A DNA stretch of 64,000 nucleotides from contig OX597839.1 in NCBI GenBank assembly GCA_951406725.2, positions 12,462,001-12,526,000 of the forward strand. Direction: 5' to 3'. Made by a program: the position numbers. The stretch comes from Octopus vulgaris. Taxonomy: Eukaryota. Of this stretch, positions 25,391-38,200 are shown piece after piece (position 1 is the first letter of the stretch; the number at the start of each line of letters is the position of its first letter).

Positions 25391-28300
25391 ATGTATATAT
25401 ATATATATGTGTGTGTGTGTATGTATATATATATATGTGTGTGTGTGTATGTATATATATATATATGTATGTATGTATGTTTGCATTTGTATGGCCGCTC
25501 CACATCAAAAGAGGTTAGCAAGGCAATAATCTTCACTGAAGTATAAATGAAGACCTCCATTAAGCTAGGAAAGAATCCTCCACAAATAAACACTAAAAGA
25601 GAAAAAGAGCTTCAACAGTGTAATAAAGATGTCATGGTAAAAAGATAAAGAAAAAAACTAGCGACACTGGCTACAAAAAAGTTACTATTTAGAGTCACAG
25701 GAATGTTAGAATTATTCTGTAGACATCAGTTGAAACGGTAGAGAGTAAATGAGGAGAGAATATGTTATGGTAAATAAACATTGTTGAATGTTAGTTAAAA
25801 GAGACCTATTACTATGAAATGATACAGATGCTACAGTCAAGTTACCAGAATGGTAAGAAATAGTGACAATATGTTAGATAAACACAAGAGTAAGAGATTA
25901 TAAAGATGCTATAGAAAATATACTATAATGAGAGAAATATAGAAACTGATGTTAAAATATAGACACTAATGAGAGGGGGCAAAAGAGGTTTCTACAAATA
26001 TAATTGTGTTAGATATTGAAATATTACATAGGATGATCTAGTATAGATAGAGAACTAAGATAGGGAACTGGTGATCTGACATAACAGCTACCAAACTACT
26101 TGGGACAGGATCTAATCTTACCAATATTCTCTTTATCACCTTCACCAGATTTACTGGTTTCTGAATCTTTGTTCTTATTGACATCATCTGTAGAATCCTC
26201 TGATTTCTCAGTTCCCTCTTTTGGTGAGTCTGGAATTAAGATGTTGCTATGGTTACAGAAGCACAGTCTAACTAAAAAAAATGGTGTACCTAGCAAGACT
26301 GAATATTGTGTAGATATTTCCATGATAACTATAACCAGTCTTTGGATACTGATGACACACACACATGTACATATATATATGTACATACATATACATATAT
26401 GTGTGTGTGTGTATGTCTGTATAACGGTGAGGTATATAAGCGAAGATACTTACATTAGAAAAATATAATGTACAAACAAATGGTATCAAAGATCTCAGTT
26501 AATATTATGTTATTGTCAAAACACAATAAAGAGAGAAATATTGACAATTATAAGGAATGTACCATTTAGAGTAACAAGATTGTTTGTGTTATTCATTAAA
26601 CGTCTGTTACTAACTTTTTGTTACCATATTTCTATGGAAATACACTGTCTTCATTTCAATTAATTTTGAAAACAATGAATAATTTAATAAACTAACCTTG
26701 TTATTATTAATTAAGCTGCTGTTTGGAACATAAATTAATACGAAAATTTGTTTCAGATCACTTTAAAATATGAAGTTTGTATCAAAGAAACAGAGGTGCT
26801 TTCAGGTGGGTTGGTATGAAAGGGATTAAAGACCAGAGACTAAGAGTTGATGGAAAATATGAATCTACCTTGGCAGCTGTCTATTTTATTAAAAGACAGC
26901 TTCTTAATGACAAAGATGCCACAATCAAATTGTTTAACTGATCAAAGATATTAACACTATGTTGTACTCATGCAGATTCTAAAATGTTACTATGGTTCTA
27001 TAGGAAATACACTATTATCAAAGAAATGTAGAGGTTGTTAAAATGTATTGGGACAGGATCTAATCTTACCAATATTCTCTTTATCGCCTTCACCAGATTT
27101 ACTGGTTTCTGAATCCTTGTTCTTATTGACATCATCTGTAGAATCTCCTGATTTCTCAGTTCCCTCTTTTGGTGAGTCTGGAGATTATGTTTCAATAAAG
27201 ATTATTGTTATATATCATTGAAATATTAGATAGGAAGATCTCTTAAAGATAGACAGCTAAGACAGAAAGTGGGCCAACATAAGCTCTACCAAACTACTTG
27301 GGACGGGAACTAATTTTACCAATATTCTCTTTATTACCTTCAGTTTTACTATTTTCTGAACAATTCTTGTTCTTATTGCCACCATCTTCTGTAGAATTCC
27401 CTGATTTATCCGTTCCTTCTTTTGATGAGTCTGGAATTAAGACAGTTTCCATGATTACAGTTAATAAGCCTAAGAAAATAATGTACCTAGTAGCAGTTGA
27501 TATTGAGTGGATACCTCAATGAAAACAGTTGATGGTCTTACCAAGTTAAACCAGTTTATTATGCTATCTACTGCATAGATTTTCCCATAGCAAGGGCTAA
27601 TCCTTCAACCTGTCTATAGAAGGTGAAAAAAATGATAACAAGGAAGAATATGTTGAGATGAAGATATCCTGTGATGTATGCAAATGAAGATGGCTCTTTG
27701 CAATTTACTGTATATGTTAAAAAGAGCTATCCCCAAAACAGACAAAAGAAAAATTAAATTGATATAAATGCCACTATAACAACACAAGCATAATAGAAAT
27801 ATTGTTGGTAGCTACAATGAAGGCACTATTGGTACTATTTAAAGTAGCAAAGAATTTTGTGGAATTCATTCAAAGGATCAAATTATAGACATCGATTCAA
27901 AAGGAAGGGACTAATGGATGCTAGTAAAAGTTATAGTAAATATAAACTATAAACTGTTTACATTTATTCTATAACCAAAGGATGTTAAAGATGCCATAAA
28001 CAAGAAACTAAAATTATAAAAAATATAAACACTAGAATACACTAAAGAGAAACTAGGATACTCTAAAGAGGTTACTAAAATGAAAGAAAGGGTGAAGATC
28101 TATAATAGATAAACAACTAAGATAGGGGAACTATTGATCTGATACATCTACAAAACTAATAGGGGCAGATTCTAGGTTCCAAGCTTACCAATATTCTCTT
28201 TATCACCTTCAGCGATTTTATTGTTTTCTGAAGAATTTTTGTCCTTATTTACGTCATCTTCAGTAGGATTCCCTGATTTTTCAGTTACTTCTTGTGGTGA

Positions 28301-28796
28301 GTCTGGAATTAAGATGTTGCTACAGTTACAGTAGTAAAATCTAACTAAACATTATGATGTGCCTATTAAATGTGATTGTTGTGTAGATATATCTGTTGCA
28401 ATCTAACAAGATCAGAACAGTTGACTATACTGTTGCCGTCGATGTTGCTGTCATTCTTATTGCCATCAGTTTATATTTTGTTCTTCAAGCTTGTTCAGGC
28501 TGGACTACTGTATCATCATCATCATCATCATCATCATCGTTTAACGTCCGTTCTCCATGCTAGCATGGGTTGGATGGTTCGACTGGGATCTGGGAAGCCA
28601 GAAGGCTGCACCAGGCTCCAGTCTGATCAGGCAGTGTTTCTACAGCTGGATGCCCTTCCTAATGCCAACCACTTCGTGAGTGTAGTGGGTACTTTTTAAC
28701 TTTTTACGTGCCAGGCAATGTACTTCTTTGGCAAGTTGATCATATAAAGAATCATTTGAGGTGAATGATATTCATACAGGTATAAATAAATATGTA

Positions 28797-35200: not shown

Positions 35201-38200
35201 AGATAAATATAGACACTAAAATATTACTAAGATGCTATAGAAATTACACTATGAAAAAAGGATAGAAGGATTGTTAACATATAGACACACATGAGAGGAG
35301 AAAAAGAAGTTATATTAAATATTATTGTGTTAGATATCATTGAAATATTATAGAGGAAAATCTAGTATAGATAGAGAACTAAGATAGGGAACTGGTGATC
35401 TGACATAACATCTACCAAACTACTTGGGACAGGAACTAATCTTACCAATATTCTCTTTATCACCTTCACCAGATTTACTGGTTTCTGAACAATCCTTGTT
35501 CTTATTGGCCTCATCTTCTGTAGAGTCCCCTGATTTCTCAGTTCCCTCTTTTGGTGAGCCTGGAATTAAGATAGTGCTATGGTTACAGTACCAAAGTTTA
35601 ACTAAAAAGTGAAAACAATGTATCCAGCAACTTTGTTTCATAGGTATTTGTATAGCAAAAGATGGCAGTCTAACTAGATTAGACAAGCCCATTAAGTTGC
35701 CAACTGTGTAGATATTTCCATGGTAACAGCTGATGCTCTTACCAAACAAGTGTGTGTGTGTGCATGCATGTGTAAGTTGTGTCACATGGTATACTACTCA
35801 AAGGGTTTTCACGATGTGTGTGGGTGGAAAACTAGTTTAACCCTTTAGCATTTAAACCAGTTATATCTGACCCAAATATTCTACCTGTCTCATGTTTAAA
35901 TTGGTCAGATCTGGCTTCTCACAACTACCCAACAATATCATTCTAAAAATAAACAATCACATTACTAAAACCTCAAAGATGATGCATGATCTATTCAAAA
36001 CAATATGAATAAATAAGCCTTTCATTAGAAAGAGTAATCTGAATGCTAATGGATTAATGGAGTACTTTTCTTTTTATGCTACACTTATTTCAACAGTTCA
36101 ATTGAGTCTTTGCATGTTATACTTAATAATTGAACCAAACTCTGATTTCCCTCCATGCTGTGATAATAGTTGAACTGAGCCCTGATCCCCATTCACATTA
36201 TACCTATGTCAACAGTTGAATTAAACACTGATTCCCCTTTAGGTTATGTATGCCACAGTGCAACACCTAGGGCAGGTGTCTTCCACTATGGCCCATTGTG
36301 AATGGGTTTGGTAGATGGAAACTGAAAGAAACCTGTCGTATATGTGTGTGTGAGTGCATGCGCGTATGTGTATGTATGTGTGTATGTATGTATATGTGTT
36401 TGTGTTTGACATAATTTGACAACCAGTATTAGCTTATGTTACTATAATTTAGCAATTTGGCTAAAGAGACCGACAGAATAAGTACCAGGCTTAAAAAATA
36501 AGCACTGGGATTGATTTGTTTGACTGAACCATTTGAGGCAGTGCTCCAGCATGGCTACAGTCCAATGACTGAGACAAGTAAAAGATAAATGATATATATT
36601 TTCTTTCACATTTTTTTCTGTGTGGATGGCAGGGAGAAGTGATGTGGAGATGTTTGCTCATTAATTCTTGAAATTAATTTTTTTTTTTTTACATTAATTT
36701 TACTTCCTGTAAAAAAAGAAACAAAAATGTTGAAAGTTAGAATCCTGAAATCAGAAATAAAAGATATATATAATTATTATATAAGTGAAAAAAAATGGTA
36801 AGTTGAGCTGAAATGAAAAATTTGTGTAAATCTAGAAAGATAAAGTATTAATAGTATTTATAACGTTAACAATAATAAAAACAGTAATAATAATAGTAAA
36901 TAATTATGATGGTAACAGTTTCGAATCTGACCTATTTTAACAAAATAAACTAAGAGACAAACAAATTTTGTGCTCTTTTCTTCTTCTTCTGACAAGTATT
37001 AACAGAATGAGGAGGTGGGTGGATGTGTAACCCCTCACCTACCTCATAAAAATGAATGAAAATGCACCAATGATTGTGAAATAAAGAATTTGGGATTTGG
37101 TGAGTTCTCTTCTCAGCAAGAGGCTAGAAGAGTATAAAAAGTGGGGGTGGGGTGGAATGAGAGAGAAATAGAATAACTGTGTGTTGTAAAATCTTGGTTT
37201 CATTCTGAATGAAATGGCAGAAGCAGTGCAATGAAAAAAAAAAACAATTTATCTTTCTCCATGTCTCTTTACATGCTACAGGAGGTGTGAAGCAATTTTA
37301 ACATGATGCTATGATTAGCAAAAATGCCCAGAAAGAGTACAAACCAAAAACGAGCAAATTATCAATAGTTGTACTCAGTTCTAGGAAACAGTGAAGCCAT
37401 GTAAAGATTTCCGTCTTTCTTTCACTCCTTCTTTCCTTTCGTTCTTTCTGTTTCTATTTCTTACTCAATTTACTGGCCAATAATTGCTTTGCATTTATGC
37501 ATGTGTTGTTTGTATATGCACACTGACAGCTCAAAAAATAAATAGACACCCCTACATACTGTTGTTATTTGTGCGGTCACTACTCCTTAGTGTGATACCC
37601 AAATGGGTTAGATAATTAAAAACTGCACAAGGTATGCCTACTAACTATTAGACTAAGTATTTAAATACGTCAATTGACATTTTGTTTCTCGAAATCAATT
37701 TTTCAAAAGTAATGGTGTCTATTTAAATTTGAGATGTGTGTGTGAGTAAATATTATATAAATGTGTGTAGGAATGTGTAAGTGGGTGTGTGTGTATGTGT
37801 ACATTTATATACATGCACATATATGTGTGTATATGCATGTATGCATAACTGTAAATGTATGTAATGTACATGTGTGTACTTGTGCACAAGAGTATATGTA
37901 TTTAAAGTGCATATATGTCTTTATGTATAAGTGTTCATTTGTGAGTATATGTGGATGTGTGTGTGGGTGAGTGTATATATTTTTGTGTGTGCATGTGCAT
38001 ATATACATGTGTATATGTATTCATGCATAAGTGCAAATATGTGAGAATGTGTGTATACGTATGTATGTGTACATATGTGCATAGACCTGTGTGTGTATGT
38101 ATGTGTGCATGTATACATATGTGTATACATATGAGTGTATGTGCATGTATGTTTATGTAGATCTGCTCGTGTATACATGTGAACTCAGCGTAGCTGAATA

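What the first reader, a model, noticed from the sequence alone, without database searches (positions are those of the whole stretch)
26122..35559. Seven tandemly duplicated symmetric exons form a modular, possibly splice-tunable linker in a smoothelin-like gene
Seen in sequence: seven paralogous exons (114, 114, 114, 114, 111, 108, 108 nt in transcript order). All have intact AG/GT sites, all are phase 1/1 and stop-free, and all length differences are whole codons. Their co-duplicated introns carry arbitrary indels and TE insertions. Together they add 261 aa of acidic S/K/E/D-rich, probably disordered sequence shortly after the smoothelin motif and helical segment. Established: symmetric exons can be skipped in any combination without frameshift, and smoothelin-family proteins are actin-associated. 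Inference: this is a lineage-specific exon expansion under frame-preserving selection that lets splicing set the length and charge of a spacer, analogous to titin PEVK exons, either as cassettes or mutually exclusively. I do not recall such an array in this family, but novelty is unverified.
Basis: partly seen in the sequence, partly recalled or inferred. Interest (0 to 1): 0.85.

Follow-up and report, generated by a model that had tools for sequence, protein, structure and literature searches.

The report
Repeated cassette exons in octopus smoothelin
Seven near-identical small exons in an octopus muscle-cytoskeleton gene encode a floppy acidic linker whose length seems to be varied by exon skipping; this is real, but it is an ordinary kind of gene architecture and public gene models already contain it.

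Summary
Seven paralogous exons lie on the minus strand at exactly the stated coordinates (114, 114, 114, 114, 111, 108, 108 nt). All have AG/GT sites, are phase 1/1 and are open in one frame.

The gene is the octopus Ig-domain smoothelin. The exons match RefSeq models of Octopus sinensis LOC115224761 at 97-100% and O. bimaculoides "unc-89" models.

Evidence for protein-level constraint:
- Exons are 85.8% identical, flanking introns 73-75%.
- 3 of 3 exonic indels are triplets, against 4 of 17 intronic.
- Pooled pN/pS is 0.44.

Seven Octopus models carry 6, 5, 5, 4, 4, 3 and 0 units. The units are therefore cassettes, not mutually exclusive exons. Read-level support was not seen.

Other points:
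- Both models that contain R5 use a donor 15 nt upstream, giving 96 nt rather than 111.
- The whole stretch from the helical exon to the last T-rich exon is 13 consecutive phase-1/1 exons.
- The unit was found only in Octopus: 6 of 240 fetched relatives, and one cluster among 1.84 billion representatives.

The spacer function is inference. Verdict: a new member of a known kind, of modest interest.

The parts
55595..55783 (-). Exon A (189 nt, phase 0/0). It lies upstream of the Smoothelin motif and holds the Met that starts the 206-aa short model P0121.
   Evidence: tblastn of P0001/P0005; peptide anchors and splice sites; P0121 sequence
44053..44128 (-). Exon B (76 nt, phase 0/1) encoding the Smoothelin motif
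   Evidence: Pfam PF12510, E 2.1e-7, 31.2 bits against a cut-off of 23; borders
39409..39693 (-). Exon C (285 nt, phase 1/1), a single long helix. It is itself a cassette: present in P0005 and P0007, skipped in P0001-P0004 and P0006.
   Evidence: AlphaFold2 helix 2-92, mean pLDDT 88.3
35446..35559 (-). R1 (114 nt, phase 1/1)
   Evidence: Its orthologous unit is in 6 of 7 Octopus models.
33884..33997 (-). R2 (114 nt, phase 1/1)
   Evidence: It matches O. sinensis X8 unit 2 at 37 of 37 residues, and was seen in 1 of 7 models.
30906..31019 (-). R3 (114 nt, phase 1/1)
   Evidence: Orthologous units are in O. sinensis X8 and O. bimaculoides X9 and X3.
28189..28302 (-). R4 (114 nt, phase 1/1), the most diverged copy
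   Evidence: Orthologous units are in X8 and in O. bimaculoides X9 and X3.
27320..27430 (-). R5 (111 nt with the donor at 27319/27320). The two models that contain it end the exon at 27335 (96 nt) by using an in-phase upstream donor.
   Evidence: P0002 and P0003 both end this unit 5 residues (15 nt) early.
27070..27177 (-). R6 (108 nt, phase 1/1). It is a 140-nt mini-duplication (27048-27187), 96% identical to R7, that sits inside R5's downstream intron, 142 nt after R5.
   Evidence: The unit is present in O. sinensis X19 and X23 and in O. bimaculoides X9 and X3.
26122..26229 (-). R7 (108 nt, phase 1/1). Its flanks are a mosaic: the upstream intron is closest to R3's (92.5%) and the downstream intron closest to R1's (94.3%).
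   Evidence: (D14). It is the closest window unit to the two identical last units of the four R-containing O. sinensis models.
22053..22106 (-). Exon D (54 nt, phase 1/1), a short acidic exon after the array
17828..17872 (-). Exon E (45 nt, phase 1/1), T-rich
15271..15345 (-). Exon F (75 nt, phase 1/1), T-rich
13231..13311 (-). Exon G (81 nt, phase 1/1), T-rich. Reading through its donor reaches a stop after 6 codons, which is how the O. bimaculoides models end.
3196..3261 (-). Exon H (66 nt, phase 1/1), T-rich. It is the last exon of the gene inside the window; the CH-domain exons lie beyond position 1.
   Evidence: P0007 joins C to H, and P0121 joins B to H.

Best explanation
The seven R exons are a tandem exon expansion inside the octopus Ig-domain smoothelin gene. 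Each copy is a phase-1/1 cassette of 32-38 codons. Each encodes a structureless, acidic peptide rich in S, K, E, D and N, with net charge -1 to -5 per unit.

The exons sit in a run of 13 symmetric exons, between the Smoothelin motif and long helix on one side and the T-rich segment and C-terminal CH domain on the other. Because every exon in that run is phase 1/1, the spliceosome can include any subset without breaking the frame. Inclusion of 0 to 6 (possibly 7) units would lengthen the linker by up to about 260 residues and add up to about -30 net charge.

Shown: the duplication, splice sites, phase, coding constraint, one-to-one orthology of units between two Octopus species, and the presence of different unit numbers in public gene models.

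Inferred: that the variation is regulated, and that the array acts as a length- and charge-setting spacer between the two ends of an actin-associated protein.
For: Anatomy:
- Seven copies have AG/GT sites and one open frame.
- 13 consecutive phase-1/1 exons were mapped.

Gene identity:
- Pfam Smoothelin motif.
- Window exons match O. sinensis LOC115224761 models at 97-100%.
- Those models carry I-set Ig, Smoothelin and CH domains.

Constraint:
- Exons are 85.8% identical, against 72.7% and 75.3% for introns.
- dN/dS is below 1 in 21 of 21 pairs. Pooled pN/pS is 0.44, and pS (0.237) is about equal to intron divergence.
- 3 of 3 exonic indels are triplets, against 4 of 17 intronic.
- P(all stop-free) is about 0.045.

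Age and retention: each of the 5 O. bimaculoides units has a single best window partner (R1, R3, R4, R5, R6) in colinear order.

Variable inclusion, in seven Octopus models:
- R1,2,3,4,7,7
- R1,5,6,7,7
- R1,6,7,7
- R1,7,7
- none
- R1,3,4,5,6
- R1,3,4,6
. Every window R exon has its unit in at least one model.

Disorder:
- Mean normalised hydropathy is 0.280, against a boundary of 0.456.
- AlphaFold2 gives no secondary structure, with mean pLDDT 64.6 and pTM 0.11.

Specificity:
- The R profile hits 6 of 240 fetched relatives, all Octopus.
- It hits 1 cluster among 1,835,955,588 representatives.
- There is no further copy in the 64-kb window.
Against: - I saw no transcript reads. The isoforms are computational RefSeq models. 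Units that are 80-96% identical invite multi-mapping, so some exon combinations could be artefacts.
- No model seen contains all units. R2 is in only 1 of 7 models.
- Constraint is moderate (0.44). The stop-free test is borderline and uses a crude star tree. Pairwise comparisons are not independent.
- Higher exon identity could partly reflect gene conversion. R7's mosaic flanks suggest conversion does occur.
- The composition is not PEVK-like (0.38 P+E+V+K+A).
- Nothing here tests mechanics, binding or tissue regulation.
- Whether other cephalopods have the array is unknown. The Argonauta hians model (P0122) lacks it, but that model is a short form that would skip it anyway.
Confidence: 0.6

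Rival explanations
1. Valency rather than length. Each R unit is a functional module, for example a cluster of acidic serine/threonine phosphorylation sites or a short binding motif. Splicing would then set how many such sites the protein carries, not how long the linker is.
For: 15 of 37 columns are invariant across the seven copies. That is more pattern than a pure composition-only spacer needs. Each unit has 6-9 S/T residues among acidic residues. The resemblance to acidophilic-kinase sites is recalled, not tested. dN/dS of 0.44 shows that residue identity matters to some degree.
Against: There is no Pfam match for the unit (protein 4), no Atlas look-alike, and no relative outside Octopus. 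The copies are young, so invariant columns may simply not have had time to change. No partner or kinase is known.
Confidence: 0.2
2. Neutral expansion with splicing noise. The exons are spliced in because their duplicated splice sites are good. The length of a disordered linker is tolerated over a wide range. The many isoform models reflect stochastic skipping or read mis-mapping, not regulation.
For: The splice sites are near-identical copies. Disordered linkers tolerate insertions (general knowledge). Copy number seems to differ between close genomes: 7 in the window against 8 inferred from O. sinensis models. The models are computational.
Against: Five units have been kept open, spliceable and individually recognisable since before the O. 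bimaculoides split. pN is below pS in all 21 pairs. Only triplet indels occur in the exons. Pure neutrality predicts decay of some copies.
Confidence: 0.15
3. Mutually exclusive exon cluster: only one R exon is used per transcript, as in classical tandem-duplicated exon pairs.
For: The exons have similar lengths, the same phase and a tandem arrangement.
Against: 6 of 7 Octopus models contain 3-6 units in series. The shortest intron between units is 142 nt, and the units on either side of it occur together in P0002 and P0003.
Confidence: 0.02
4. Not coding. The units are pseudo-exons or part of a dispersed genomic repeat that happens to be open.
For: The introns are full of interspersed repeats. 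A second frame is open in 4 of 7 copies.
Against: The units are translated in RefSeq models of two species. No copy lies outside the array in the window. The interspersed repeats do not overlap the exons. Signatures of coding constraint are present.
Confidence: 0.02

Closest known systems
Titin PEVK region (differentially spliced repeat exons)
   Same: Many short paralogous exons, made by tandem exon duplication, encode an unstructured charged segment in a muscle cytoskeletal protein. Exon number varies between species and exons are differentially spliced. For PEVK this rests on PMC6469411 (abstract start, passages) and PMC3575840 (abstract start only).
   Different: Composition: P+E+V+K+A is 96 of 254 residues (0.38) here. 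That is below the 0.54 per-exon ratio used to recognise PEVK exons in PMC6469411. There are seven exons rather than about a hundred. The protein is different (smoothelin, not titin). No mechanical data exist. There is no sequence homology.
Lophotrochozoan Ig-domain smoothelins (e.g. Patella, Crassostrea, Mytilus, Aplysia, Owenia models)
   Same: The architecture is the same: I-set Ig domains, Smoothelin motif, helical segment, T-rich segment, C-terminal CH domain (precomputed Pfam; sequences). The C-terminal 250 residues are 46-81% identical.
   Different: None of the 28 named non-cephalopod mollusc proteins, nor any other non-Octopus protein fetched, has the R unit. The best domain score is 3.3 bits, against 44-74 bits in Octopus.
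Vertebrate smoothelin (SMTN) and smoothelin-like proteins
   Same: They have Smoothelin motif(s) and a single C-terminal type-2 CH domain, and their isoforms are made by alternative splicing. This rests on PMC10643981 (abstract start, two passages). Vertebrate SMTN proteins appear as weaker hits.
   Different: The vertebrate hits carry no Ig domains by Pfam. The splicing described in PMC10643981 concerns a C-terminal cassette exon inside the CH domain, not a repeat array. That paper has 0 occurrences of 'invertebrate', 'mollus' or 'duplicat'.
Mutually exclusive tandem-duplicated exons
   Same: They originate by tandem exon duplication and share similar length and equal phase. PMC5740500 was seen only as a search listing with the start of its abstract. 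The rest is general knowledge.
   Different: Here several copies are used together in one model.

Membership tests
Smoothelin family | Smoothelin motif (Pfam PF12510) | tested here: met
   Exon B ORF: E 2.1e-7, 31.2 bits, cut-off 23
Smoothelin family | [quoted passage not shown] | tested here: met
   The domain is not inside the window, because the gene runs off position 1. It is present in the O. sinensis models whose exons match the window at 97-100%.
Smoothelin family | Association with actin or contractile filaments | not testable with these tools
PEVK-type differentially spliced repeat-exon spring | Tandem array of short paralogous exons of symmetric phase | tested here: met
   Seven exons of 108-114 nt, all phase 1/1; homology of exon plus flanks
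PEVK-type differentially spliced repeat-exon spring | P/E/V/K(/A)-rich composition (at least 0.54 per exon in PMC6469411) | tested here: not met
   96 of 254 residues = 0.38; threshold from a passage
PEVK-type differentially spliced repeat-exon spring | Variable exon inclusion in transcripts | tested here: inconclusive
   Seven RefSeq models carry 0, 3, 4, 4, 5, 5 and 6 units, but these are computational models and I saw no reads.
PEVK-type differentially spliced repeat-exon spring | Unstructured chain | tested here: met
   Hydropathy 0.280 against a boundary of 0.456. AlphaFold2 gives no secondary structure, pLDDT 64.6. Both are predictions only.
PEVK-type differentially spliced repeat-exon spring | Entropic-spring mechanics | not testable with these tools
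   Needs single-molecule or fibre mechanics.
Mutually exclusive exon cluster | Exactly one exon of the cluster per transcript | tested here: not met
   6 of 7 Octopus models contain 3-6 units.
Interspersed repeat / transposon-derived exon | Copies dispersed outside the locus | tested here: not met
   There is no R copy outside 26.1-35.6 kb in the window. The R profile finds one protein cluster in 1.84 billion. A genome-wide DNA search was not possible.

The most novel reading that the evidence does not exclude
An octopod-specific and still-evolving exon array gives the Ig-smoothelin of octopus muscle a splice-set polyacidic spacer of 0 to about 260 residues. Signs of ongoing change are 7 copies here, 8 inferred in O. 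sinensis, at least 5 in O. bimaculoides, a donor shift in R5, and conversion-like mosaics around R7. Different muscles or cell types would choose different unit numbers to tune how far the actin-binding CH end sits from the Ig/Smoothelin end. That would be a convergent counterpart of titin's PEVK tuning in an unrelated protein of a muscular hydrostat.
Probability: 0.25. Interest if true: 0.5.

Novelty: new member of a known kind. Interest (0 to 1): 0.3.

Why it matters
If inclusion is regulated, this locus is a compact natural example of how tandem duplication of a symmetric exon creates an adjustable disordered linker in a contractile-apparatus protein. It has seven units and easily designed junction assays. 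It lies in an animal whose muscles work without a skeleton. It also shows exon birth, a donor shift and probable gene conversion at close range between sister species. If inclusion is not regulated, it is simply a correct annotation of a lineage-specific low-complexity insertion. It also serves as a caution that repeat exons inflate the number of predicted isoforms.

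Tried and rejected
- the 37-aa exon was too short for the homologue search. I resent a 48-aa straight read-through of the same place.
- Tandem Repeats Finder reports no row for the exon units, which lie 253-2978 nt apart; its rows are shorter-period repeats inside the region. 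The repeat finder and BLAST were used instead.
- Pfam on the R1 ORF: 0 families.
- Atlas search with R1: no usable hit.
- tRNA scan of the window: 0 genes, so there is no tRNA-SINE lead.
- Exon D as a decayed R copy: no DNA or peptide similarity was found outside the array. The only outside hit is one weak intronic match at 22700-22849. I dropped this idea.
- Mutually exclusive splicing: rejected on the models.
- Literature: 'smoothelin'+'octopus' gave 1 irrelevant paper. 'smoothelin'+'cephalopod' gave 0. 'smoothelin'/'invertebrate'/'Ig domain' listed nothing with smoothelin in it.
Every search or fold with window sequence was done exon by exon. No whole-protein search or fold of the window's own product exists, and whole-protein statements rest on named RefSeq models.
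- No eukaryotic genome or read collection was available, so copy number in other cephalopods and read support stayed unchecked.

Full report
**What is there.** The window has no N. The repeat finder showed 5- to 7-copy direct-repeat families between 26.1 and 35.6 kb (families D3, D5, D8, D9, D14). Read on the minus strand, these are seven copies of one unit with a pyrimidine-rich tract and AG on one side and GTAAG/GTAAA on the other.

Exact borders are 35559-35446, 33997-33884, 31019-30906, 28302-28189, 27430-27320, 27177-27070 and 26229-26122. The lengths are 114, 114, 114, 114, 111, 108 and 108 nt. The frame starting at the third base is open in 7 of 7 copies. The other two frames are stopped in 3 of 7 and 7 of 7. 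I call the exons R1 to R7 in transcript order.

**Which gene.** An ORF at 44030-44242 (-) matches Pfam Smoothelin (PF12510) at E 2.1e-7 and 31.2 bits, against a cut-off of 23. A 48-residue straight read across R1 found 6 proteins among 20 candidates. Four are isoforms of Octopus sinensis LOC115224761. Two are Octopus bimaculoides models named "muscle M-line assembly protein unc-89". All carry I-set Ig domains and a Smoothelin motif. The O. sinensis models also carry a CH domain.

tblastn of these named models onto the window maps the gene on the minus strand. Anchoring the borders gives these exons:
- A: 55783-55595
- B: 44128-44053 (Smoothelin motif)
- C: 39693-39409
- R1-R7
- D: 22106-22053
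- E: 17872-17828
- F: 15345-15271
- G: 13311-13231
- H: 3261-3196

The Ig part lies beyond the high end of the window and the CH domain beyond position 1. R2, R3 and R4 are 100% identical to O. sinensis units, and R1 and R7 are 97% identical. The window therefore comes from an octopus of the sinensis/vulgaris kind, but not from the exact sequence behind those models.

Exon C folds as one helix (residues 2-92, mean pLDDT 88.3).

All searches and folds with window sequence were exon by exon. Statements about whole proteins rest on the named RefSeq models.

**Is it more than chance?**
- A MAFFT alignment of the units with their flanks gives 85.8% identity in exons (1428/1665). It gives 72.7% (555/763) and 75.3% (1176/1561) in upstream and downstream intron. 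These are 15 pairs, with R6 left out because its flanks are not homologous.
- Distinct gap runs: 3 of 3 in the exons are exactly 3 nt, while 4 of 17 in the flanks are multiples of three.
- Nei-Gojobori dN/dS is below 1 in 21 of 21 pairs. Pooled pN is 0.105 and pS is 0.237, a ratio of 0.44. pS is about equal to intron divergence.
- A crude star-tree simulation gives P about 0.045 that all seven stay stop-free with the observed number of substitutions.

Each of these is modest and the pairs are not independent, but together they point to protein-level constraint.

**History.** The shared unit is the exon plus roughly 100 nt upstream and 150-300 nt downstream. The rest of each intron is unrelated and holds interspersed repeats with up to 6 further copies in the window. 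None of those repeats overlaps an exon, and they cover 1410 of 9701 bases.

R6 is different from the other units. Only 140 nt (27048-27187) are duplicated, at 96% identity to R7, and they are dropped into R5's downstream intron 142 nt after R5.

R7's flanks are mosaic. The upstream intron is closest to R3's (92.5%) and the downstream intron is closest to R1's (94.3%; family D14). This looks like unequal exchange or gene conversion.

Each of the five O. bimaculoides units has one best partner in the window (R1, R3, R4, R5, R6) in the same order. O. sinensis units pair with R1-R7 likewise. Most duplications therefore predate the split of these species, and the copies have stayed open since. O. 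sinensis models imply eight units, with two identical R7-like units carrying one extra codon, against seven here. I could not tell real variation from assembly error.

**Splicing.** The seven Octopus models seen have the following compositions:

| Model | Units |
|---|---|
| O. sinensis X8 | R1,2,3,4,7,7 |
| O. sinensis X19 | R1,5,6,7,7 |
| O. sinensis X23 | R1,6,7,7 |
| O. sinensis X26 | R1,7,7 |
| O. sinensis X34 | helix C, then straight to H (no R, no D-G) |
| O. bimaculoides X9 | R1,3,4,5,6 |
| O. bimaculoides X3 | C plus R1,3,4,6 |

A 206-residue model labelled O. vulgaris joins B directly to H. Every window R exon is thus represented in at least one model. Several units occur together, which excludes mutually exclusive use. 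C is itself a cassette.

All exons from C to H are phase 1/1, which makes 13 in a row.

In both models that contain R5, the exon ends 15 nt early. Both donors are phase 1.

These isoforms are computational models.

**What the units encode.** Per unit there are 7-11 D+E, 5-6 K+R and 6-9 S+T, with net charge -1 to -5, summing to -30 without the junction codons. Mean normalised hydropathy is 0.280, against a charge-hydropathy boundary of 0.456. AlphaFold2 on the seven-unit alignment gives no secondary structure, mean pLDDT 64.6 and pTM 0.11. Exons are 66-70% purine on the sense strand, against 40-43% in the flanks.

**Distribution.** A profile of the seven units found one representative (an O. 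sinensis isoform) at E up to 0.001 among 1,835,955,588 representatives. Run locally over all 240 proteins fetched with the CH-end query, it hits 6, all Octopus, with domain scores of 44-74 bits. Every other protein scores at most 3.3 bits. By my count of names, the misses include 28 non-cephalopod mollusc proteins that share the Ig-Smoothelin-helix-T-rich-CH layout (sequences of seven relatives read).

No squid, cuttlefish or Nautilus orthologue with a name appeared. The Argonauta hians model is a short form that would skip the array anyway. So "octopus-specific" is shown only against non-cephalopods. There is no further copy in the window.

**Mechanism, and how sure.** I commit to a lineage-specific tandem expansion of a symmetric cassette exon. 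It lets splicing vary the length (0 to about 260 residues) and the charge of a disordered linker between the Smoothelin/helix end and the T-rich/CH end of an actin-associated protein. My confidence is 0.6.

The duplication, phase, constraint, retention across species and variable models are shown. Regulation and the spacer effect are inferred. The rivals are:
- unit number sets the valency of phospho- or binding sites (0.2);
- neutral expansion with noisy skipping or annotation artefacts (0.15);
- mutually exclusive use (0.02);
- non-coding repeat (0.02).

**Comparison with what is known.** It works like titin's PEVK exons: repeated exons, duplication and loss, differential splicing. That description of PEVK comes from PMC6469411 (passages) and PMC3575840 (abstract start). 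It is not a member of that class, because its P+E+V+K+A fraction is 0.38, below the 0.54 used there.

It is a member of the smoothelin family by its motif and, through the matching models, by its CH domain. The vertebrate smoothelin splicing described in PMC10643981 concerns a C-terminal exon. That paper does not mention invertebrates or duplications.

**Novelty.** The array is already in public gene models. Searches for smoothelin with octopus (1 irrelevant paper), with cephalopod (0 papers) and with invertebrate/Ig domain (nothing relevant listed) found no description of it. The library lacks most subscription journals. I rate it a new member of a known kind, with interest 0.3.

Noticed in passing
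window 39693-3196 (-): All 13 consecutive exons from the helical exon C through R1-R7 to the T-rich exons D-H are phase 1/1. Public models exploit this by joining C to H, or B to H.
   Followed up: partly
window 27335/27320 (-), R5: R5 has two in-phase donors 15 nt apart. Both models that contain R5 use the upstream one. The downstream donor has lost the +5 G that the other six copies keep.
   Followed up: partly
window 26015-26165 vs 35339-35489; 26100-26238 vs 27048-27187: There are mosaic similarities around R7. Its downstream intron is 94-96% identical to R1's, its exon 96% to R6 and its upstream intron 92.5% to R3's. This suggests gene conversion or unequal crossing-over. O. sinensis models imply 8 units against 7 here.
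   Followed up: partly
window 13231 and downstream (-): Reading through the donor of exon G reaches a stop after 6 codons. The two O. bimaculoides models end this way and so lack the CH domain. This is either an alternative 3' end or an annotation artefact.
   Followed up: no
window 6522-7505 (+): There is a reverse-transcriptase fragment (Pfam RVT_1, E 3.7e-17) in the intron between exons G and H, on the opposite strand. It is a retroelement remnant.
   Followed up: no
window 28516-28697, 32007-32293, 33253-33450, 34140-34476 and elsewhere: Short interspersed repeats lie in the R introns, with up to 6 more copies across the window. ARAGORN finds no tRNA-like gene in the window.
   Followed up: partly
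proteins: Ig (I-set) domains combined with Smoothelin and CH appear in the mollusc, annelid (Owenia), nemertean (Lineus) and bryozoan (Watersipora) hits. They do not appear in the arthropod, echinoderm, hemichordate or vertebrate hits, which carry Smoothelin and CH, or CH alone. This may be a lophotrochozoan architecture.
   Followed up: no
window 25108-25478 and many other places: Long (TA)n/(TG)n microsatellites are frequent throughout the window. They produce many spurious long ORFs in the six-frame list.
   Followed up: no
window R exons, frame starting at base 1: A second reading frame is also open in 4 of 7 R exons. This probably follows from the purine-rich, low-T composition (66-70% purine).
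   Followed up: no
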